Position numbers and translations under genes: made by a program. A stretch of 64,000 nt of DNA from an uncultured Candidatus Saccharibacteria bacterium (GTDB taxonomy: Bacteria; Patescibacteriota; Saccharimonadia; Saccharimonadales; JACDBH01). The stretch spans positions 42,733 to 106,732 of the forward strand of contig CAZXJN010000001.1 in assembly GCA_964641015.1 (NCBI GenBank), given 5' to 3'. Below, piece after piece: positions 11,125 through 63,475 of the stretch (positions within the stretch are counted from its first letter, which is position 1; the number at the start of each line of letters is the position of its first letter). A model generated the notes under the pieces. That model did no database searches. It was given only the letters and a program-made list of their open reading frames with translations, and had not been told where the DNA came from.

Positions 11125-11161
11125 GACAGTTAGCACTCTTCAAGCTCGAGTGCTAACTGTC
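11125..11161. promoter_or_regulatory. CIRCE operator (HrcA-type) upstream of clpP
   Basis: gacagTTAGCACTCttcaagctcGAGTGCTAActgtc. The core matches the CIRCE consensus TTAGCACTC-N9-GAGTGCTAA exactly and lies ~50 nt upstream of the clpP start. Confidence 0.6.
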
Positions 11162-13034: not shown

Positions 13035-14339
13035 TTATTTTCTGTGATCTTTGACGATGCTCACAATCCGTTGCAGCGAATGTGTTTCTTCGGTGCTTGC
13101 GGCGAGATTTTTGAGTTTGTACTGTTCAGCTTCGACTTCTTGCTCGCCAACGAATACCACGTACGCCACGCCTGATTTGATAGCAGCCTTCAGCTGCTTT
13201 TCGGTTTTGCGGGCAGTCAGATCAATCGCCGTATTCACGCCCATTTCACGTAATTCAGCCGCCACTTTCATAGCCGCATCTCCTACATCTCCGATCGGTA
13301 TCAGTACCACCTCGGTTGCGGGCTTGGCGTCTGGAACAAGCTTCCAGCCTTTCAAAAACTCCATCAGCACTACATCGCTGATAGCAAAGCCAATGGTCGG
13401 GATCGGCTCCACGCCAAACAAGCCTACCAGTCCGTTATAACGCCCGCCGCCGAACATCGAACGATTGTTATCCGGGTTAGTATCAAATACTTCAAACACA
13501 AAGTCAGTATAGTAATCAAGCCCACGCATCAGTGATATATCAAACCGAAGATTCGTAACACCAGCTTGCTCAATCCGCTCTATTATTTCTTTTAGCTTGC
13601 TGCAGGCAGCTGATTGCTGTAGCTCTTCTGGCAGATCAGCCAGGGTCTTAGCCTGCAGAGTGCCTAGCAGCTTTTCGTCAGCACCCTGATCGCGTAAGCT
13701 GGGCGGAATAGACGCCTCAATCAGCCCGACAAATTCTGGCCGGGGCATCTTATGCATCCGGTCTATAAGCCGGGAGACCGTTTTTTGCTCTACCTCATTG
13801 AGTCCGATCCATTCCCCGAGCACGTAATTCATAAACTCCCGGCTGTTCACACGTATCTCGTACATGTCGCTGCGCGCTGCAAATCCTTTCATAAGCGAAT
13901 CGACCATCTGAATCATTTCGACCTCAGCGGCGACTTCCTCTACCCCAAACAAATCAACATTAAGCTGGTAGAACTCCCGCCCGCGGCCTTTTTGCGGCCG
14001 CTCATAGCGCCAGCACGATGGAATCGAAAACCAGCGTATGGGCAAAGGCAGCTCCTGGCGGCGGCCAGCTACCATGCGTGCAGCACTGGGCGTGATTTCC
14101 GGACGCAGCATAATCTCACGACCGCCGCGATCAGTAAAGCTATAGGATTGCTCGTTAACTAATTCATCACCGGATTTCGCGGCAAACAGCTCGACTGGCT
14201 CAAGTATAGGCGCGTCGTATTCTTCATAGCCGTACAGATGGCATACGTTTCGCCACACTTCAAACAGGCGATTTCTGATACGCATGTCCTCAGGATAAAA
14301 ATCCCGCGCACCTTTGTAGGGTTGGGTTGATAGGTTCAT
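13035..14339 (-). CDS. hisS: Histidyl-tRNA synthetase
   Basis: 434 aa. Class II aaRS motifs (…REIMLRPEITPS…, …GGGRYNGL…) and a C-terminal anticodon-binding domain. Confidence 0.92.
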   Translation of the reverse strand: MNLSTQPYKGARDFYPEDMRIRNRLFEVWRNVCHLYGYEEYDAPILEPVELFAAKSGDELVNEQSYSFTDRGGREIMLRPEITPSAARMVAGRRQELPLPIRWFSIPSCWRYERPQKGRGREFYQLNVDLFGVEEVAAEVEMIQMVDSLMKGFAARSDMYEIRVNSREFMNYVLGEWIGLNEVEQKTVSRLIDRMHKMPRPEFVGLIEASIPPSLRDQGADEKLLGTLQAKTLADLPEELQQSAACSKLKEIIERIEQAGVTNLRFDISLMRGLDYYTDFVFEVFDTNPDNNRSMFGGGRYNGLVGLFGVEPIPTIGFAISDVVLMEFLKGWKLVPDAKPATEVVLIPIGDVGDAAMKVAAELREMGVNTAIDLTARKTEKQLKAAIKSGVAYVVFVGEQEVEAEQYKLKNLAASTEETHSLQRIVSIVKDHRK

Positions 14340-27174: not shown

Positions 27175-27320
27175 ATGGTTAGATTATACCGCACTTGTCA
27201 CTGGCGAAACGATGATGAGCACCTCGCTCTTACAAAAACCTACAAACTATAGTCGTGCAGGGCCCATATTAGGCCTGCTTAGCACCCGTGCTACATCTGA
27301 TAGCATAACAAAACGCACCC

Positions 27321-30887: not shown

Positions 30888-30918
30888 AGTTAGCACTCGC
30901 ATGTCAAGAGTGCTAACT
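30888..30918. promoter_or_regulatory. CIRCE operator (HrcA-type) upstream of clpC
   Basis: agTTAGCACTCgcatgtcaaGAGTGCTAActgtc. Perfect match to TTAGCACTC-N9-GAGTGCTAA, 22 nt upstream of the clpC ATG. Confidence 0.6.
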
Positions 30919-31373
30919 GTCCAGAAGCGCGTACCAGCAAGAAAAAACAGGTGTCAAAAGCCCGAACATCCGAACTATAGTTATAAACCCTGGATTACCA
31001 GAGGCAACAGCTTTTATTGTAATTTTTACATTGGTTGCTGCAAAAACCTGTACAGGCTTATCGGCGCCAGCCATTATGAACCGGCTGGAATATTCTTGCC
31101 CTGCGGCTGCTCCCTCGTAGATGAGAAGAGCTATATGCCAGAGCACTGCCACCAATAGCCACCGCTATGACGGATGAAGGGTTGAACTTCTGCACGGTTT
31201 CATCTGCATGGCAATCAGATTCGTAAAAAACAGTCGAAGCACAGTCTATGCTTTCAGCCTGAAACCTGCTAATGCTCTCTGCTGCATCCAGTCGTGCGGC
31301 AAACCCTATTGCAGCAGCGGCGGCGGCGAGCCCGAAAATAACTCTTTCCGGATGGCCGCGCTCTCTCAACTCG

Positions 31374-32531: not shown

Positions 32532-32681
32532 TATATTTTCTACTCCTGAATTTATTGTTTTCAAATTTCCTTTTTTCATAAGTTACTTTAGGTCAGTACA
32601 ACCACAGTGGTATGAAAAAACCCGACCAATCTGGCCGGGCGAACTGGTGATAGTATACGGGAATCTGCTAAAAAAGTAAAC

Positions 32682-32718
32682 AAAAAAACCGGCGCCCATC
32701 CGAAATGCCGGTTTTTTC
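32682..32718. terminator. Bidirectional rho-independent terminator in the divergent nusA/aminopeptidase spacer
   Basis: AAAAAACCGGC-gcccatccgaaat-GCCGGTTTTTT. A GC-rich stem flanked by an A-tract and a T-tract. Confidence 0.5.
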
Positions 32719-32816
32719 TGATGTCGTACGACTAGCGTACAAGCTGCCGCGACTCGCGGTCTCTTTGCCATCCGAACATGTTTTAATCCTTTTTTGTTTT
32801 TGGTTCGTGCTCCTAG

Positions 32817-32845
32817 TTTAGCACAAGTAACATAGGCTGGTACAA
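32817..32845 (+). promoter_or_regulatory. Promoter of the M1 aminopeptidase gene (leaderless configuration)
   Basis: TTAGCA-N17-TACAAT, with the -10 ending 7 nt before ATG 32854. Confidence 0.4.
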
Positions 32846-32853
32846 TACTTTAT

Positions 32854-35394
32854 ATGAAAAGAAGTGTGACCAGACTGTATGAACAGTTCATTCCAAAAAA
32901 TTATCAACTCAATATAAGTATCGACCCAGACAAGAATACCTTTGCCGGTACGGTCATCATTAAGGGTAAAAAGGTAGGCCGCCCATCGCGGCGCATTACC
33001 TTTCATCAAAAGGATCTGCGTATTACAAGCGCCACGCTAACTCGCCATGAAAAGGGCGCTGATACATCTATTGAGATAAGCCGCATCAATAATCAGAAAT
33101 CTTTTGATGAAGTCCGGCTGCATACAAACCACACTATCTTTCCCGGCGCCTACACGGTAGAGCTTGCGTTCAGCGGCAAAATTACCGATCCAATGAACGG
33201 TCTCTACCCGTGCTATTTCACGCATGACGGCCAGGACAAAAAGCTTTTTGCCACCCAGTTCGAAAGCCATCATGCCCGAGAGGTATTCCCCTGCATCGAC
33301 GAGCCGGAAGCCAAGGCGACATTCGATCTTGCGCTTGTTACGCCTAATGACAAAGGCACCGTGCTTGCCAACACCCCCGTACTTGAGCAGGAGATAAAGG
33401 ATAACCAGCGAATAACAAAGTTTGAAACGACGCCGATAATGTCCACCTATCTGCTGGCATTCGTTTACGGCGAAATAGGATACAAGGAAAGCAAGACCAA
33501 ACGAGGCACACTGGTGCGCACCTATGCGACACCTGACAATGTGCGATTCACTGATTTTGCGCTGGATACGGCTGTTAGGACGCTGGAATTTTATGAAGAT
33601 TACTTCGATATTCCTTACCCGCTGGAGAAATGCGACATGATCGCCCTGCCGGATTTTGCCAGCGGCGCTATGGAGAATTGGGGACTCATCACCTACCGCG
33701 AGCAGACCATGCTGGTTGACCCAGCTAACACCAGCCTGACCACCAAGCAGTACGTAGCAATGGTAATCGGCCATGAGCTGGCCCACCAGTGGTTCGGCAA
33801 TCTGGTCACTATGAAGTGGTGGACGGACCTTTGGCTCAACGAAGGTTTTGCCTCCTGGATTGAATACCTGGCCGTCGATCACCTCTATCCTGACTGGGAT
33901 ATGTGGACGCAATTTGTCACCAGCGAGCAGCAGTCTGCGCTGAAGCTTGATTCACTGGACAATACCCATCCCATCGAAGCACCGATCAATCATCCTGACG
34001 AAATCCGCAGCATCTTTGACGCAATCAGCTACAACAAAGGCGCCAGCGTCATCCATATGCTTTACGGCTATCTTGGACCTCGGGATTTCCAAAAAGGACT
34101 GCGCGACTACCTGAAAAAACATGCTTATAAGAACACCTCCACCAGCGATTTGTGGGCGGCGCTGGAAAAGGCGTCTGGCAAGCCTGTCAAAGATTTCATG
34201 CATGCATGGACATCACTGCCAGGCTTCCCGCTGCTTGCTGTCTCTAGCGACAAAGGCAAAATCAAGCTTGCCCAAGGCAGGTTCTATATGGTTGAACCCG
34301 CCAACACCACCCGGACCAACTGGCCGATTCCAGTGCTCGGACCAAAAGCTGCGCCAGACACTCTGGACACAGCCACCGGCGAATATACTTCTAGAGCCTT
34401 CTCTAAGCTCAATCAAGGCCAGACCGGCTTTTATCGCACGCTTTACTCATCAGAGATACTTGAAAATCTTGCAGAACAAATCCCTGACATGGACCCGCTC
34501 GATAGATTAGGCATCCTCTCCGACGTTTTCGAGACAGCCAAGGCCGGCTATGGCTCAGGGGTAGAGGCATTGAAGCTGCTGGAAAAATACCAAGACGAGG
34601 ACAACGCCGCAGTCTGGGACATTATCGCTGCCAATCTCGGTGAGATCAGGCGAGTCATGGATGACGAACAGCTGCGCGAAGCAATCAAGCCGCTTATAGT
34701 CAGGCTGACTGCCAAGCAGGTCAAGCGTCTCGGCTTCAAGGAAAAGAAAACCGACACTCATTTTGACAAGCTGCTTCGCCCGACAGTCTTGGGCCTGGCC
34801 GCCAGCGCAGATGACAAGGATGTAGTCAAATGGTGCTTAGACAGCTTCAGCAAGATTAAATCTACCAGCGAAATCAACGCCGACCTGCGCAGCGTTGTAT
34901 TCAGCACATCAGCAAGGCTTGGCGACAAGACAACTTTTGCTAAACTGCTTCGGTTTCACAACCAAACCGACCTAAGCGAAGAGCGTACTACGCTGGCGGC
35001 GGCACTGACCAGCTTCAAGCAACCTGAGTTGATCGCTCAGTCACTCGGGCTCGTGACCAGTGCCGACGTACGGCGGCAAGACGCAATGTACTGGATTGCA
35101 TACAGCTTCATGAACCGCCATGCCAAAAAGGACACTTGGCAGTGGATGAAAGACAACTGGAAGTGGCTGGACCGCGAACTAGGTAGCGATCTGAGCTTTT
35201 ACCGCACTCCGATATACGCCGCCCGCAGTTTCAGCAGCAAAGATTTCATCAAGGAATACGACGAATTCTTTAATCCTAAGAGTTCGCCGGCGCTTGACCG
35301 CAGCATCAAACAGGGCCGCGAGATGCTTACTTGGCAGACCGCCTGGAAAGAGCGCGATCTTGACGATATCCAGTCATATTTGAAACAACAGTAA
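32854..35394 (+). CDS. pepN: M1-family aminopeptidase (aminopeptidase N-like)
   Basis: GAMENWGLITYRE exopeptidase motif. HELAHQWFGNLVTMKWWTDLWLNEGFA contains HExxH-x18-E. Confidence 0.9.
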   Translation: MKRSVTRLYEQFIPKNYQLNISIDPDKNTFAGTVIIKGKKVGRPSRRITFHQKDLRITSATLTRHEKGADTSIEISRINNQKSFDEVRLHTNHTIFPGAYTVELAFSGKITDPMNGLYPCYFTHDGQDKKLFATQFESHHAREVFPCIDEPEAKATFDLALVTPNDKGTVLANTPVLEQEIKDNQRITKFETTPIMSTYLLAFVYGEIGYKESKTKRGTLVRTYATPDNVRFTDFALDTAVRTLEFYEDYFDIPYPLEKCDMIALPDFASGAMENWGLITYREQTMLVDPANTSLTTKQYVAMVIGHELAHQWFGNLVTMKWWTDLWLNEGFASWIEYLAVDHLYPDWDMWTQFVTSEQQSALKLDSLDNTHPIEAPINHPDEIRSIFDAISYNKGASVIHMLYGYLGPRDFQKGLRDYLKKHAYKNTSTSDLWAALEKASGKPVKDFMHAWTSLPGFPLLAVSSDKGKIKLAQGRFYMVEPANTTRTNWPIPVLGPKAAPDTLDTATGEYTSRAFSKLNQGQTGFYRTLYSSEILENLAEQIPDMDPLDRLGILSDVFETAKAGYGSGVEALKLLEKYQDEDNAAVWDIIAANLGEIRRVMDDEQLREAIKPLIVRLTAKQVKRLGFKEKKTDTHFDKLLRPTVLGLAASADDKDVVKWCLDSFSKIKSTSEINADLRSVVFSTSARLGDKTTFAKLLRFHNQTDLSEERTTLAAALTSFKQPELIAQSLGLVTSADVRRQDAMYWIAYSFMNRHAKKDTWQWMKDNWKWLDRELGSDLSFYRTPIYAARSFSSKDFIKEYDEFFNPKSSPALDRSIKQGREMLTWQTAWKERDLDDIQSYLKQQ

Positions 35395-35400
35395 TACTAC

Positions 35401-35442
35401 TTGACATCCACTGACAAGTGTGATATAATTAGAAGATAGGGT
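35401..35442 (+). promoter_or_regulatory. Consensus promoter module A (TTGACA-N17-TGATATAAT-N7-TAGGGT), orphan
   Basis: TTGACA 35401-06, TATAAT 35424-29, TAGGGT 35437-42, then hairpin AGGG-tagttttt-CCCT. There is no plus-strand CDS downstream. It faces the 3' end of yraN, which is on the minus strand. Confidence 0.45.
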
Positions 35443-35467
35443 AGTTTTTCCCTGTCTGCGAAAAGAA

Positions 35468-35800
35468 CTACATCTCTTCTACGAAAATAAAATCTCCGGC
35501 ATCTACTCCGATAGCCGCCAGCTGGTATTCGCCTGTCCAAGCATTGTCTTTGACCCACATTTCGGCCGCAAAGCCCATTTGCTTCAACTTCTTGCTCGTC
35601 ACGTACTCCAGCCCCGACCCCTGCATCAGGCTGCGGCGTGACTTTACTTCCACAAAATATATGCGCTTGCTTTTACTGGCAATGATGTCGATTTCGCACC
35701 AGCGGGTTTTCCAGTTGATATCAACAATCTCAAAACCGAGTGACTTTAAATATTCTGCGGCCTGCTGCTCCGCATCATGCCCAGACGCATAGTTGCTCAC
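35468..35800 (-). CDS. yraN: YraN-family (UPF0102) putative endonuclease
   Basis: 110 aa. …CEIDIIA…VEVKSRR… is the restriction-endonuclease-like fold motif of UPF0102. Confidence 0.7.
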   Translation of the reverse strand: MSNYASGHDAEQQAAEYLKSLGFEIVDINWKTRWCEIDIIASKSKRIYFVEVKSRRSLMQGSGLEYVTSKKLKQMGFAAEMWVKDNAWTGEYQLAAIGVDAGDFIFVEEM

Positions 35801-38210: not shown

Positions 38211-38237
38211 GTAATCGCAGCATAACAGAGACAGTAC

Positions 38238-38280
38238 TTGACAATCTTTATATTACTATGATATAATGGTAGTATAGGGT
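38238..38280 (+). promoter_or_regulatory. Consensus promoter module B (TTGACA-N18-TGATATAAT-N7-TAGGGT) driving a small-protein operon
   Basis: TTGACA 38238-43, TATAAT 38262-67, TAGGGT 38275-80. A 120-nt leader runs to ATG 38395. Confidence 0.5.
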
Positions 38281-38394
38281 CACTGTATACTTTTTTCTAA
38301 AAGCACAAAGAGCGCTCCGCTCCGGTGATGCTAGCCCTTTGACAGAGCAGTTTGAATAAGTTTCTATCATCTTTGTCCGTAAGGAGTCTTGCCG

Positions 38395-38583
38395 ATGCCC
38401 GCAAAGGCGAGCAGTAAACGGCTGTCAGATATGTGGCCGATCGCGATTTTTGGACTGATAGGCCTAGCCTACGTCCGAGCAATCTATAGGTATCCGAAGT
38501 ACCATTGGTTTTTGGTACCGCTACTTGGCATAGTGATTGGTTTGTTTGCAATATTCATATACTACTCCCTGAGGAGGGAATAG
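38395..38583 (+). CDS. Small hydrophobic protein (62 aa, 2 TM)
   Basis: AAGGAG RBS 8 nt upstream. MPAKASSKRLSDMWPIAIFGLIGLAYV…FLVPLLGIVIGLFAIFIYY. Confidence 0.45.
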   Translation: MPAKASSKRLSDMWPIAIFGLIGLAYVRAIYRYPKYHWFLVPLLGIVIGLFAIFIYYSLRRE

Positions 38584-38585
38584 CA

Positions 38586-38762
38586 ATGTTTAACGCCGTC
38601 AAAACGTTGATTAACCGGTGGTATCCAGTTGTCTCATTTGTGTGTACCGAGTGCAACAAAGAGTGGCAACAGAAGGTGATGCACCTTCTGATAGACGAAG
38701 TCCCATGCGTGCACTGTGGATCAGCGTATGTCCTGCACAACATCGCCGCGAGGCAACAGTAA
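38586..38762 (+). CDS. Small zinc-ribbon protein (58 aa; CxxC…CxxC)
   Basis: GAGGAGGG RBS. MFNAVKTLINRWYPVVSFVCTECNKEW…VPCVHCGSAYVLH. Start is 3 nt after the upstream stop. Confidence 0.45.
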   Translation: MFNAVKTLINRWYPVVSFVCTECNKEWQQKVMHLLIDEVPCVHCGSAYVLHNIAARQQ

Positions 38763-38767
38763 GGCTC

Positions 38768-38840
38768 TCCGAGAGTGAGGGGGTGGCGCTCGCCACAGGG
38801 ATTTGATGGTCAAACATCAAACCCACCCCGACTCTCTCGG
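38768..38840. other. Structured inverted-repeat element (73 nt) directly after the zinc-ribbon gene
   Basis: Outer arms CCGAGAG-tgag-GGGGTGG and CCACCCC-gact-CTCTCGG enclose two inner hairpins, GTGGC-gctc-GCCAC and TTTGATG-gtcaaa-CATCAAA. Confidence 0.4.
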
Positions 38841-38907
38841 CCTTATCTCACTGCTCTGTCATATTCACTTTTCCCACGATCGTGAGTATTTTGAATATGC
38901 GAAATTA

Positions 38908-38973
38908 AGATTTAGGATTTAGGAAATAGAAAATAGAAATCAGGAATAGGAAAAATGAAATAGGGGATATGGG
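38908..38973. repeat. Purine-rich degenerate short tandem repeat (A3-5TAGG)n
   Basis: gatttaggatttaggaaatagaaaatagaaatcaggaataggaaaaatgaaataggggatatgggg, about 9 units. Confidence 0.4.
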
Positions 38974-39015
38974 GCTTCCTTCGGAAGCTTACTACTGTCA
39001 AGAAGCCACTTTTCG

Positions 39016-39183
39016 GTCAAGGGTAATTTGTCCTAATTCGAGGCCTCCATTCTGAAAACGTAACACAACCACTGCTAAGTGCGTTCTTTTGAGCCAAGGG
39101 TAATTTTTGGTAAGGCGAAGCACTATTTCGAAAACGTATATCAAATACGATGCAGAAATATCTTTGGCTTACCAAAAATTACC
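39016..39183. repeat. Two degenerate ~77-nt tandem repeats containing a 16-bp-stem hairpin
   Basis: Units start at GTCAAGGGTAATTT (39016) and GCCAAGGGTAATTT (39093). GAAAACGTA recurs at 39054 and 39130. Perfect inverted repeat GGTAATTTTTGGTAAG (39099-39114) / CTTACCAAAAATTACC (39168-39183). Confidence 0.4.
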
Positions 39184-39210
39184 GCTCTCAAAAAACGCAC
39201 GCGCATAAGA

Positions 39211-52158: not shown

Positions 52159-52354
52159 ATGTGAGCTAAATTATAACAGGTTGATCTGTCTCTGACCACT
52201 GCAGTTAGACGTAGCCTAGATCAAAGCAGCGTCGATTATAATCTCGCTCATATCAGAATCTGATTACACGAGCTACACAACGAAAAACAACTACAATATT
52301 CTCAATTTTAGGACGGCCGTCACAAAAATGAGAATAATATCACAGGGGTATACA

Positions 52355-52396
52355 TTGACTACACTTGAGATGTGTGATATAATAAAAATATAGGGT
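52355..52396 (+). promoter_or_regulatory. Consensus promoter module C (TTGACT-N17-TGATATAAT-N7-TAGGGT), orphan
   Basis: TTGACT 52355-60, TATAAT 52378-83, TAGGGT 52391-96. No ATG within the 158 nt down to the uvrB stop. Confidence 0.45.
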
Positions 52397-57422: not shown

Positions 57423-57612
57423 AAGGCTCGTTATTTTTTAGGTTTATTTTGACCCTATCTTTTCATTTTATCATACAATAAACATTTTGTCAAGTTTCTA
57501 TAGTATTAACCCCTGTTTCACGCTGACTTTCACAGACTGCACCCATAAGTGAAACACCCTCGAAGAGATTTAACTTTTCGAGGGTGTGTTGTGCTCAAGC
57601 CATTTCTTATTT

Positions 57613-63433: not shown

Positions 63434-63475
63434 TTGACAAAAGTATTATATTATGATACAATGGTAAAATAGGGT
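63434..63475 (+). promoter_or_regulatory. Consensus promoter module D (TTGACA-N17-TGATACAAT-N7-TAGGGT), orphan
   Basis: TTGACA 63434-39, TACAAT 63457-62, TAGGGT 63470-75, then hairpin TAGGG-tctttaatg-CCCTA. The hairpin overlaps the stop codon of the minus-strand gene 63486-63998. Confidence 0.45.

What the first reader, a model, noticed from the sequence alone, without database searches (positions are those of the whole stretch)
35401..35453. Recurrent promoter module TTGACA-N17/18-TGnTA(T/C)AAT-N7-TAGGGT (+5' GGG/CCC hairpin)
At least four copies share an identical architecture. Each has a perfect or near-perfect -35, a 17-18 nt spacer ending in an extended -10 (TGATATAAT or TGATACAAT), exactly 7 nt, then (A)TAGGGT at the predicted +1. 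The copies are at 35401-35442, 38238-38280, 52355-52396 and 63434-63475. A variant precedes hisS on the minus strand (14472-14419: TTGACA-N17-TATAAT…TACAAT-aagaaga-aTAGAGGGGTC). In copies A, D and E the TAGGG is immediately followed by a small hairpin (TAGGG-N8/9-CCCTA, AGGG-N8-CCCT, AGAGG-N11-CCTCT). Spacers of A and C share GTGTGATATAAT, and the radA -10 region (27182-27200, minus) shares GACAAGTG-yGr-TATAAT with copy A. This could be a lineage-specific strong-promoter and initiation-context signature. It could equally be a palindromic operator at +1 for an unknown regulator, or the 5' ends of a small-RNA family. Only one copy (B) has a downstream CDS.
Basis: seen in the sequence. Interest (0 to 1): 0.7.

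Follow-up and report, generated by a model that had tools for sequence, protein, structure and literature searches.

The report
Orphan consensus promoters with conserved start
A small Saccharibacteria genome carries a family of near-perfect strong promoters. All start with the same seven bases (ATAGGGT), yet they mostly point into the tail ends of neighbouring genes rather than at a gene of their own, so they probably make non-coding or antisense RNA, or simply hold RNA polymerase there.

Summary
The window holds five, not four, exact copies of TTGAC(A/T)-N17/18-TGATAnAAT-N6-ATAGGGT; the missed one is 57493-57452, minus strand. With the hisS-upstream variant, these are the only full -35/-10 consensus promoters in 64 kb. 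Other genes here use -35-less extended -10 promoters and are mostly leaderless.

Only promoter elements and the first 7 transcribed bases are conserved. Flanks and downstream sequence are at chance identity, and there is no shared fold, Rfam hit or terminator.

Four of the five canonical copies fire into the 3' end of a neighbouring gene, 11-160 nt from its stop codon. One has a 120-nt leader and two small ORFs.

Related Saccharimonadales genomes (transketolase 82-93% identical) carry the same promoter family at orthologous sites C and D. ATAGGGT is kept at site D in two species, is ATACGGT at site C in another, and is replaced elsewhere. More distant relatives lack the family.

I read these as maintained orphan sigma-A promoters that launch untranslated, mostly antisense transcription. 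The heptamer would act at initiation or as a 5' tag; its function is inferred, not shown. My two genome and metagenome scans used a wrong gap and say nothing about distribution.

The parts
35401..35442 (+). Module A. It has -35 TTGACA (35401-06), a second CTGACA 10 nt downstream, TGTGATATAAT (extended -10, hexamer 35424-29), discriminator tagaag, and ATAGGGT (35436-42). It starts 7 nt after the pepN stop and faces the yraN stop (35468), 26 nt away.
   Evidence: model R1, 38.2 bits, E 2e-10
35430..35481 (-). Hairpin on the yraN sense strand (outer arms TAGAAGAGAT/ATCTTCTA). Its 3' arm is the complement of module A's discriminator and heptamer, followed by AUUAUAUCAC. It is terminator-like for the rplS-rnhB-yraN operon.
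   Evidence: (-15.8 kcal/mol)
38238..38280 (+). Module B (18-nt spacer), 28 nt after the malic-enzyme stop. It is the only copy with coding sequence downstream.
   Evidence: 31.5 bits
38281..38762 (+). Transcript region of module B. It comprises a roughly 120-nt leader, a 62-aa two-helix membrane ORF (38395-38583, RBS aaggag) and a 58-aa CxxC..CxxC zinc-ribbon ORF (38586-38762, RBS gaggaggg).
   Evidence: weak zinc-ribbon family hits only
52355..52396 (+). Module C (-35 TTGACT). It is divergent from gatC (start 52158) and faces the uvrB stop (52555), 160 nt away.
   Evidence: 36.6 bits; orthologue L110 19394-19441
57452..57493 (-). It lies downstream of the pfkB terminator hairpin (57587-57554) and faces the stop of the LOG-family gene (57422), 30 nt away.
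   Evidence: 34.7 bits
63434..63475 (+). Module D (-10 TACAAT). It is divergent from the rpe-tkt operon (start 63253). Its first transcribed base is 11 nt from the stop (63486) of a fast-evolving gene of unknown function.
   Evidence: (32.5 bits); orthologues in L115, L121, L110, L113, L112
14375..14475 (-). Variant E. It has TTGACA-N4-TTGACA, TGCTATAAT, a second TACAAT, and aagaagaATAGAGGGGT. A strong intrinsic terminator follows (stem 14403-14381, T-run 14380-14375). This discrete unit of roughly 60 nt sits upstream of the hisS promoter (TATAAT at 14356-14351, ATG at 14339).
   Evidence: z = -4.95; 31.1 bits

Best explanation
**What it is.** These are genuine, selectively maintained promoters for the primary sigma factor. 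They are of the Gram-positive sigma-A type: -35 TTGACA, a 17-18 bp spacer, and TRTGnTAnAAT.

- They belong to one sequence family shared by a clade of Saccharimonadales.
- They are 'orphan'. They do not serve a downstream gene. They sit back-to-back with the start of the next operon, or between convergent genes.
- They fire into the 3' end of the adjacent gene, producing untranslated, mostly antisense RNA that begins (A)UAGGGU.
- Only the promoter and the first seven transcribed bases are conserved. The working unit is therefore initiation itself, or a 5' tag, and not the body of an RNA.

**Most likely mode of action (inferred, not shown).** Strong convergent transcription, or RNA polymerase occupancy, opposes read-through from the facing gene. 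This would insulate the next, weak, leaderless promoter.

The heptamer would tune early transcription. Its T-A-n-n-n-T pattern resembles a -10-like sigma re-binding element. Alternatively, it is read by a lineage-specific factor.
For: **Promoter quality.**
- These are the only sites in 64 kb that score 11-12 of 12 on the two hexamers with a TG.
- The invariant columns across 13 family members are exactly the -35, TRTG and -10 positions.

**Selection.**
- Among the five paralogues the heptamer is identical at 35 of 35 positions.
- Mean pairwise identity is about 0.42 in the spacer, about 0.45 in the discriminator and about 0.25-0.27 in the flanks.

**Orthology.**
- The D-site promoter is present in the window, L115, L121, L110 and L113, and partially in L112 and L120.
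- ATAGGGT is kept at site D in L115 and L121, although everything after +7 differs.
- At site C, L110 has ATACGGT. This keeps T, A and the final T.

**No coding or structured product.**
- A, C, D and F have no plausible ORF or RBS downstream.
- Fold z-scores run from -1.2 to +1.2.
- There are no Rfam hits.
- No terminator lies downstream on the module strand.

**Context.**
- In the window, the first transcribed base lies 11-160 nt from a facing stop codon in 4 of 6 units.
- The same holds for all seven complete relatives' copies.
- At sites C and D the module stays next to gatC or rpe while the facing gene differs between species. At C it faces uvrB or SHOCT. At D it faces the 266-aa gene or rpiB. 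The antisense target is therefore not what is conserved.

**Background promoters.** Ordinary genes are leaderless and use -35-less promoters.
Against: **No expression data.** Transcription, its start point and RNA length are all inferred.

**Orientation is not significantly biased.**
- About 51% of intergenic position-and-strand combinations face a 3' end by chance.
- P(>=4 of 6) = 0.36 in the window.
- The 11-of-13 figure (P = 0.014) counts orthologues as if independent.
- Random insertion therefore explains the orientation equally well.

**Some copies do not fit an insulator role.** B has ORFs downstream. E points the same way as hisS and has its own terminator.

**The organism has ordinary terminators.** Classical intrinsic terminators are present in the window, so a promoter-based insulator is not needed.

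**The sigma-pause reading is weak.**
- The T-N-Y-G pause consensus described for lambda PR' (PMC9191641) is absent at the equivalent offset (+15..+18) in all five copies, read directly from the sequences.
- An invariant GGG is not explained by -10-like recognition.

**The heptamer is not universal in the family.** L110 site D and all three L113 copies have other initial sequences.
Confidence: 0.4

Rival explanations
1. The modules drive a family of regulatory RNAs that act through the RNA itself. The shared 5' AUAGGGU would be a seed for base-pairing, or a tag bound by an RNA-binding protein or nuclease. The variable body would pair in cis with the 3' end of the convergent mRNA, as in 3'-overlapping antisense RNAs such as those of type I toxin-antitoxin pairs.
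For: - Strong dedicated promoters without a CDS are typical of sRNA genes.
- The variant E is a discrete promoter-to-terminator unit of about 60 nt.
- Most predicted transcripts can form a hairpin within the first 5-20 nt.
- The RNAs of A, C, D and F would be perfectly complementary to the last codons and 3' UTR of the facing gene.
Against: - Nothing beyond +7 is conserved among paralogues or orthologues.
- The five canonical copies have no terminator.
- Folds are no better than shuffles.
- The facing gene changes between species at conserved sites C and D.
- The complement ACCCTAT is rare in the window: 3 sites outside modules. Trans targets are therefore not evident.
Confidence: 0.2
2. ATAGGGT at +1..+7 is the DNA binding site of a lineage-specific transcription factor, most simply a repressor sitting on the start site. 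The modules would then form a regulon of otherwise very strong promoters that are switched together.
For: - The heptamer is as invariant as the core promoter elements and sits where repressors commonly act.
- Its use varies by lineage within the family, as expected if it co-evolves with a trans-acting factor. It is present in the window, L115 and L121; near-present in L110; and replaced in L113.
Against: - Each promoter has a single asymmetric 7-bp site and no second half-site.
- No candidate regulator is encoded next to any copy.
- The neighbouring genes have no common function.
Confidence: 0.15
3. The module is a propagating or recently duplicated promoter repeat (a 'mobile promoter'). It lands in tolerated intergenic spots and has no host function. 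Conservation would reflect common descent, plus the requirement that whatever copies it needs an active promoter.
For: - Family members share sequence beyond the consensus. Examples are TTGACTTTACTTGACA(A/G)GTGTGATATAAT at different sites and in different species, AAGATAGGGT in A, F and L115, and TATATTA..AATGGTA in B and D.
- Presence and absence are patchy. Site F is occupied in the window and in L113 but not in L110, L112 or L121. A and B are absent from all four relatives sampled there.
- Two Logan contigs break inside the module, as expected for a repeat.
- Orientation relative to genes is statistically random.
- Propagated promoters are documented in prokaryotes (PMC3488235).
Against: - There are no terminal inverted repeats, target duplications or associated transposase, and flanks are at chance identity.
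- No known mechanism copies a 45-bp sigma-70 promoter, which lies upstream of its own transcript.
- Site D is retained across at least five species, with purifying selection focused on promoter positions.
Confidence: 0.12
4. The primary function is on the opposite strand. ACCCTAT would form the GC-rich base of a terminator stem for the convergent gene. The complement of the A-rich discriminator and -10 would supply the U-rich tail. The promoter likeness would be secondary.
For: A hairpin abuts the -10 complement on the facing gene's sense strand in win_A, win_D, L115_D, L110_D and L113_D, at -14.7 to -16.6 kcal/mol for the folded segment. Relatives L015, L110 and L112 have classical bidirectional terminators at sites A and F.
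Against: - This does not explain the invariant TTGAC at the correct -35 distance, or the TRTG.
- Stems are short or absent in B, C, F, L121_D, L110_C and L113_F.
- The tail AUUAUAUCA is a poor U-tract.
- A terminator stem would not need the same sequence at every site.
Confidence: 0.05
5. These are ordinary gene promoters whose coding sequences were missed, or a chance recurrence.
For: B does have small ORFs downstream. Small proteins are easily overlooked.
Against: - No ORF with a ribosome-binding site or a 5'-terminal AUG follows A, C, D or F.
- Five identical heptamers at a fixed offset cannot be chance.
Confidence: 0.03

Closest known systems
Gram-positive sigma-A consensus promoters with a '-16 region' (TTGACA-N17-TRTGnTATAAT)
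   Same: All defining sequence elements are present and are the invariant columns of the 13-member alignment.
   Different: - A further invariant block, ATAGGGT, sits at +1..+7.
- Most copies have no gene to express.
- The rest of the genome's genes do not use this promoter type.
Sigma-dependent promoter-proximal pause elements, as at phage lambda PR' (PMC9191641)
   Same: A strong promoter is followed within the first 7 transcribed bases by a hexamer with the key -10 positions (T-A-n-n-n-T). The L110 variant TACGGT keeps exactly those positions.
   Different: - The downstream T-N-Y-G pause consensus is absent.
- The invariant GGG is not explained.
- There is no Q-type factor or phage context.
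- Pausing was not tested.
Putative mobile promoters / promoter propagation in prokaryotes (PMC3488235, PMC3575422)
   Same: Homologous promoter sequences recur next to unrelated genes within one genome and in related genomes, with patchy presence.
   Different: The described cases sit upstream of genes and rewire their expression. These copies mostly face gene 3' ends, and only about 45 bp is shared.
3'-overlapping cis-antisense RNAs and convergent-promoter transcriptional interference (for example type I toxin-antitoxin antisense RNAs; excludon-type arrangements)
   Same: A strong promoter is placed opposite a gene and starts within or just beyond its 3' end.
   Different: - The facing genes are housekeeping genes of unrelated function, and they change between species while the promoter stays.
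- A shared 5' heptamer across loci is not a feature of those systems.
- This comparison rests on my own knowledge of those systems, not on a test here.

Membership tests
Sigma-70/sigma-A primary-sigma promoter | -35 hexamer TTGACA, 17+/-1 bp spacer, -10 hexamer TATAAT | tested here: met
   The hexamers score 11-12 of 12 in all five copies and E, with spacers of 17 or 18.
Sigma-70/sigma-A primary-sigma promoter | Extended -10 / -16 region (TRTGn) | tested here: met
   T-R-T-G is invariant in 13 of 13 family members.
Sigma-70/sigma-A primary-sigma promoter | Transcripts actually initiate about 7 nt downstream of the -10 | not testable with these tools
   There are no expression data. The A at the 7th base is invariant in the five copies.
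Sigma-dependent pause element (lambda PR' type) | -10-like hexamer on the non-template strand within the initial transcribed region | tested here: met
   TAGGGT at +2..+7 has T1, A2 and T6. L110 site C has TACGGT.
Sigma-dependent pause element (lambda PR' type) | Downstream T-N-Y-G element at the pause site (about 8-11 nt after the hexamer; PMC9191641) | tested here: not met
   None of A, B, C, D or F has T at +15 with Y-G at +17/+18 (sequences).
Sigma-dependent pause element (lambda PR' type) | Paused complex with 16-18 nt RNA, sigma retained | not testable with these tools
   This needs in vitro transcription or NET-seq.
Trans-acting small RNA gene family | Discrete transcript bounded by a promoter and a terminator | tested here: not met
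   No terminator-like site lies downstream of A, B, C, D or F on the module strand. The feature is met only for variant E.
Trans-acting small RNA gene family | Sequence or structure of the RNA body conserved among paralogues and orthologues | tested here: not met
   - Downstream identity is 0.25-0.34.
- Site D orthologues diverge completely after +7.
- Fold z-scores are -1.2 to +1.2.
- There are no Rfam hits.
Cis-antisense RNA overlapping a gene's 3' end | Promoter on the opposite strand, with the start within or just past the gene's 3' end | tested here: met
   The feature is met for A (26 nt), C (160 nt), D (11 nt), F (30 nt) and all seven complete relatives' copies. It is not met for B and E.
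Mobile promoter / dispersed repeat | Copies share sequence beyond the functional consensus, next to non-homologous genes | tested here: met
   Mean column identity is 70% over 48 nt. Spacer strings are shared across sites and species. Contigs break inside the module.
MITE / REP-type mobile element | Terminal inverted repeats or a conserved palindrome, target-site duplication | tested here: not met
   Flanks are at chance identity, and there are no terminal repeats or duplications.
Transcription-factor operator | Dyad-symmetric or repeated site overlapping the promoter, conserved among regulon members | tested here: inconclusive
   The heptamer is conserved at +1..+7 but is single and asymmetric. 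The dyads are copy-specific. The binding protein is unknown.
Intrinsic terminator (opposite strand) | GC-rich hairpin immediately followed by a U-tract | tested here: inconclusive
   A hairpin abuts the module in 5 of 13 copies. The tail is AUUAUAUCA-like rather than a U-run.

The most novel reading that the evidence does not exclude
The cassette is a gene-independent device whose product is not a long RNA. A super-consensus promoter plus an invariant +1..+7 would hold sigma-A RNA polymerase in a promoter-proximal paused or abortively cycling state. That complex would act as a protein roadblock, insulator or terminator at gene 3' ends in a leaderless-mRNA genome. Alternatively, the cassette would produce a defined heptanucleotide RNA (pppAUAGGGU) that serves as a signal or primer. 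Either way, a lineage-specific factor may read the heptamer.
Probability: 0.12. Interest if true: 0.85.

Novelty: new variant of a known kind. Interest (0 to 1): 0.6.

Why it matters
Saccharibacteria and other CPR bacteria have tiny genomes and few recognisable regulators, and TM7x has no validated small RNAs (bioRxiv 10.1101/2022.03.25.485537).

This would be a conserved class of the strongest promoters in the genome that serves no gene and carries an invariant initial transcribed heptamer. It would point to a layer of control that is invisible to gene annotation: antisense transcription, insulation, or polymerase parking.

The family also provides ready-made strong promoters for the emerging genetic systems in this phylum. 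It offers a natural test case for how the first few transcribed bases are read by RNA polymerase or by a partner factor.

If the copies turn out to be ordinary antisense promoters or a decaying repeat family, the result is of local interest only.

Tried and rejected
**1. Invalid collection scans (my error).**
- Searches (genome contigs; metagenome contigs) used TTGACN{17,18}TGATA... The correct gap is N{15,16}.
- The wrong pattern has 0 matches in the window itself.
- Their single hit, one WWE3 locus, is irrelevant. The scans say nothing about the module's distribution.

**2. Viral scan.** The correctly spaced -10 plus heptamer pattern gave 90 single, scattered hits. I judged this to be about chance level; I did not compute an expectation. 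There is no phage source.

**3. Rfam.** At gathering threshold the window gave only tRNA-Leu and five relatives' loci gave nothing. At permissive E-values, around A, B, C, E and one L113 stretch, there were only sub-threshold hits.

**4. Shared RNA fold.** Rejected; folds are no better than shuffles.

**5. Hidden ORFs, or leaderless translation from AUA.** Rejected.

**6. MITE or transposon ends.** Rejected.

**7. Strain variation.** Ten metagenome contigs of the same species are identical across copy A, so they carry no information.

**8. Distant relatives.** L012, L015, L123 and L124 (YraN 62-66% identical) have no family member in 68 kb.

**9. Alternative-sigma or second-promoter readings of TAGGGT.** I considered a sigma-B-type GGGTAT -10, and the second TTGACA acting as a -35. 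Both were rejected by inspection, because the spacing or the downstream bases do not fit.

**10. Small proteins behind B, and unknown neighbours.** No informative family in Pfam, NCBIfam or PHROGs.

**11. Literature.** Searches found no description of this motif.

Full report
**Organism and setting**

The window is a housekeeping stretch of a Saccharibacteria-type chromosome with 50% G+C. It carries rpoB/rpoC-size ORFs, hisS, radA, clpB, nusA, pepN, rplS, rnhB, pilB, dnaE, gatCAB, uvrB and an rpe-tkt-fba-pfkB operon. The best named homologues are annotated 'Candidatus Saccharibacteria' and 'Saccharimonadales'.

**The observation**

The four copies are at the stated coordinates and have the stated architecture. 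Pattern searches found a fifth exact copy on the minus strand at 57493-57452.

- All five read TTGAC(A/T), then 17 or 18 bp ending in T-R-TGATAnAAT, then six variable purine-rich bases, then ATAGGGT.
- TAYAAT-N7-TAGGG with up to 1 mismatch occurs 7 times against 1.0 expected. No shuffle out of 100 reached 7.
- TAGGGT by itself is not enriched: 17 against 14.8.
- The window contains only six TTGAC-N17-19-TAnAAT sites. These are the five modules plus the hisS-upstream variant E.
- These six are the top-scoring promoter-like sites of the simple scan.

**How other genes start**

Many ORFs have a TAnnnT hexamer 5-8 nt before their ATG and no -35. Examples are pepN, uvrB, radA, rnhB and pilB. They look leaderless and use extended -10 promoters. 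The module is therefore a distinct class, not the house style of promoter.

**What is conserved**

An alignment with flanks shows conservation only from the -35 to the T of ATAGGGT. Mean pairwise identities among the five copies are:

| Region | Mean pairwise identity |
|---|---|
| Upstream flank | about 0.27 |
| Spacer | about 0.42 |
| Discriminator | about 0.45 |
| +8 to +27 | 0.34 |
| +28 to +87 | 0.25 |

The heptamer is identical at 35 of 35 positions.

- The first 100-146 transcribed nt fold no better than shuffles (z from -1.2 to +1.2).
- Rfam finds only tRNA-Leu at gathering threshold, and only sub-threshold hits at permissive thresholds.
- No terminator-like site follows on the module strand.
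- No ORF with a ribosome-binding site follows A, C, D or F.

Two units differ:

- B has a 120-nt leader, then a 62-aa membrane ORF and a 58-aa zinc-ribbon ORF, both with good ribosome-binding sites.
- E is followed by a strong terminator (z = -4.95). It forms a discrete unit of about 60 nt ahead of hisS's own promoter.

**Context**

- A begins 7 nt after the pepN stop. Its start is 26 nt from the stop of the convergent yraN.
- C is divergent from gatC and faces the uvrB stop, 160 nt away.
- D is divergent from rpe and faces the stop of a fast-evolving gene, 11 nt away.
- F follows the pfkB terminator and faces the stop of a LOG-family gene, 30 nt away.

Four of the five canonical copies would therefore transcribe antisense into a gene's 3' end.

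Against a null of random intergenic position and strand, this is unremarkable. About 51% of positions face a 3' end, and P(>=4 of 6) = 0.36. It is, however, unlike ordinary promoters.

**Relatives**

*An error of mine.* My two large collection scans used a wrong gap, N17-18 instead of N15-16 between TTGAC and TGATA. The pattern does not match the window itself.

*Valid comparative evidence.* This came from fetching syntenic loci through protein homologues.

Distant relatives (YraN 62-66% identical: L012, L015, L123, L124) have no family member in 68 kb. At site A they have either a classical bidirectional terminator, an extra small gene, or overlapping genes.

Closer relatives were found through the transketolase C-terminal subunit at 82-93% identity: L115, L112/L120, L110, L113 and L121. 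They keep the gene order and carry the same promoter family.

| Locus | Site | Promoter | Initial sequence |
|---|---|---|---|
| L115 | D | TTTACT..TATGATATAAT-aataag | ATAGGGT |
| L121 | D | TTGACA..TGGTACAAT-gaggag | ATAGGGT |
| L110 | D | strong promoter | ATATAGC |
| L113 | D | strong promoter | (A)TATAAGC |
| L112, L120 | D | contigs end inside the module | not available |
| L110 | C | TTGACTTTACTTGACAGGTGTGATATAAT-gagagg | ATACGGT |
| L113 | F, plus one other site | E-like: second -10-like hexamer, then AAGAAGAAT.. | E-like |

- A sequence-only model built from the 13 members recovers exactly these copies plus the two truncated ones. It finds nothing else in 222 kb.
- The 13-way alignment has 70% mean column identity. 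Its invariant columns are the -35, T-R-T-G and -10 positions.

**What the comparison shows**

- The promoters are maintained across species at sites C and D.
- The heptamer is kept in some lineages although everything after +7 diverges. It is therefore selected in its own right, but it is not universal in the family.
- At both conserved sites the module stays next to the start of the downstream operon (gatC, rpe), while the gene it faces differs between species. At C it faces uvrB in the window and SHOCT in L110. At D it faces the 266-aa gene in the window, L110 and L115, and rpiB in L113 and L121. The antisense target is not the conserved partner.
- Occupancy is patchy. Site F is filled in the window and in L113, with different subtypes, but holds a plain terminator in L110, L112 and L121.
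- Copies share spacer strings across sites and species. Examples are TTGACTTTACTTGACA(A/G)GTGTGATATAAT and AAGATAGGGT. This is a repeat family by descent.

**Opposite strand**

In about five of 13 copies a hairpin on the facing gene's sense strand ends in the complement of the discriminator and heptamer. It is followed by AUUAUAUCA. This looks like a weak terminator that overlaps the promoter. It is not general, and it cannot explain the -35 or TRTG conservation.

**Interpretation**

*Shown.* This is a real, multi-copy, cross-species family of consensus sigma-A-type promoters with a selected initial transcribed heptamer, mostly without a gene to express.

*Inferred.* They are active and produce untranslated, mostly antisense RNA.

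*My preferred mechanism (about 0.4).* The unit works through initiation or occupancy itself. It would oppose read-through from the facing gene and insulate the adjacent weak leaderless promoter. The heptamer would act in early transcription or as a site for a lineage-specific factor.

*The sigma-dependent-pause idea.* It is supported only by the T-A-n-n-n-T pattern and by the L110 variant that keeps it. The downstream pause consensus described for lambda PR' (PMC9191641) is absent.

*Rivals.*
- RNA-level function with a 5' seed or tag (0.2).
- A repressor site defining a regulon (0.15). This is compatible with the main reading.
- A functionless propagating promoter repeat (0.12; compare PMC3488235).
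- An opposite-strand terminator (0.05).
- Missed ORFs or chance (0.03).

**Novelty**

I found no description of this motif in the searched literature. The TM7x transcriptome preprint states that no small RNAs are validated in that organism. I rate this as a new variant of known kinds (orphan or antisense promoters, propagated promoters), not a new category. Interest is moderate to high, because the strongest promoters of a minimal genome serve no gene and carry an unexplained invariant start sequence.

Noticed in passing
window 11125-11158 and 30888-30921: Two copies of a CIRCE-like inverted repeat (TTAGCACTC-N9-GAGTGCTAA) lie next to chaperone-type genes; the second abuts the clpB start. They are probably HrcA operators.
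   Followed up: no
window 38763-39210: A 448-nt non-coding gap lies between the small ORFs behind module B and pilB.
- It holds a long imperfect hairpin (38763-38842) and a purine-rich run (about 38905-38965).
- It also holds a direct repeat (39009-39044 / 39086-39121) and an inverted repeat (39099-39120 / 39162-39183).
- There is no Rfam match.
- The whole stretch of about 1 kb (38211-39210) is absent from relatives L012, L123 and L124, where the malic-enzyme gene and pilB abut.
   Followed up: partly
window, many gene starts (e.g. 32838-32856, 54534-54517, 27188-27172, 40832-40816): Most genes appear leaderless. A TAnnnT hexamer, often with an upstream TG, lies 5-8 nt before the ATG, with no recognisable -35 or Shine-Dalgarno sequence.
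   Followed up: partly
window 32600-32720 (minus strand, nusA leader): Two hairpin-plus-T-run sites lie between a TTTACT-N17-TATACT promoter and the nusA start, suggesting attenuation. Relatives L012 (13345) and L123 (9432) have TTGACA-N17-TA(T/C)AAT followed by a hairpin (with a T-run in L123) before nusA.
   Followed up: no
window 52297-52336: A 40-nt palindrome (TATTCTCA..GACGGCCGTC..TGAGAATA) lies just upstream of module C, between uvrB and gatC. It may be a terminator for uvrB or an operator.
   Followed up: no
L112 1-29 and L120 1-29: Two independent metagenome contigs end inside the site-D module. This is what an assembler does at a repeat, and suggests near-identical multi-copy modules in that species.
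   Followed up: no
L113 13990-14330: An unannotated stretch of about 340 nt, with several hairpins, lies between pfkB and that genome's site-F module. There is no Rfam match.
   Followed up: partly
window 27205-27183 (minus strand): The leaderless radA promoter shares TGACAAGTG-yGr-TATAAT with module A but lacks the distal -35. The proximal half of the module sequence therefore also occurs in an ordinary gene promoter.
   Followed up: partly
L113 18780-18890 (minus strand): At site C this relative has TTGACTTTTCTGG.. without a -10, between uvrB and gatC. It may be a decayed remnant of a module.
   Followed up: no
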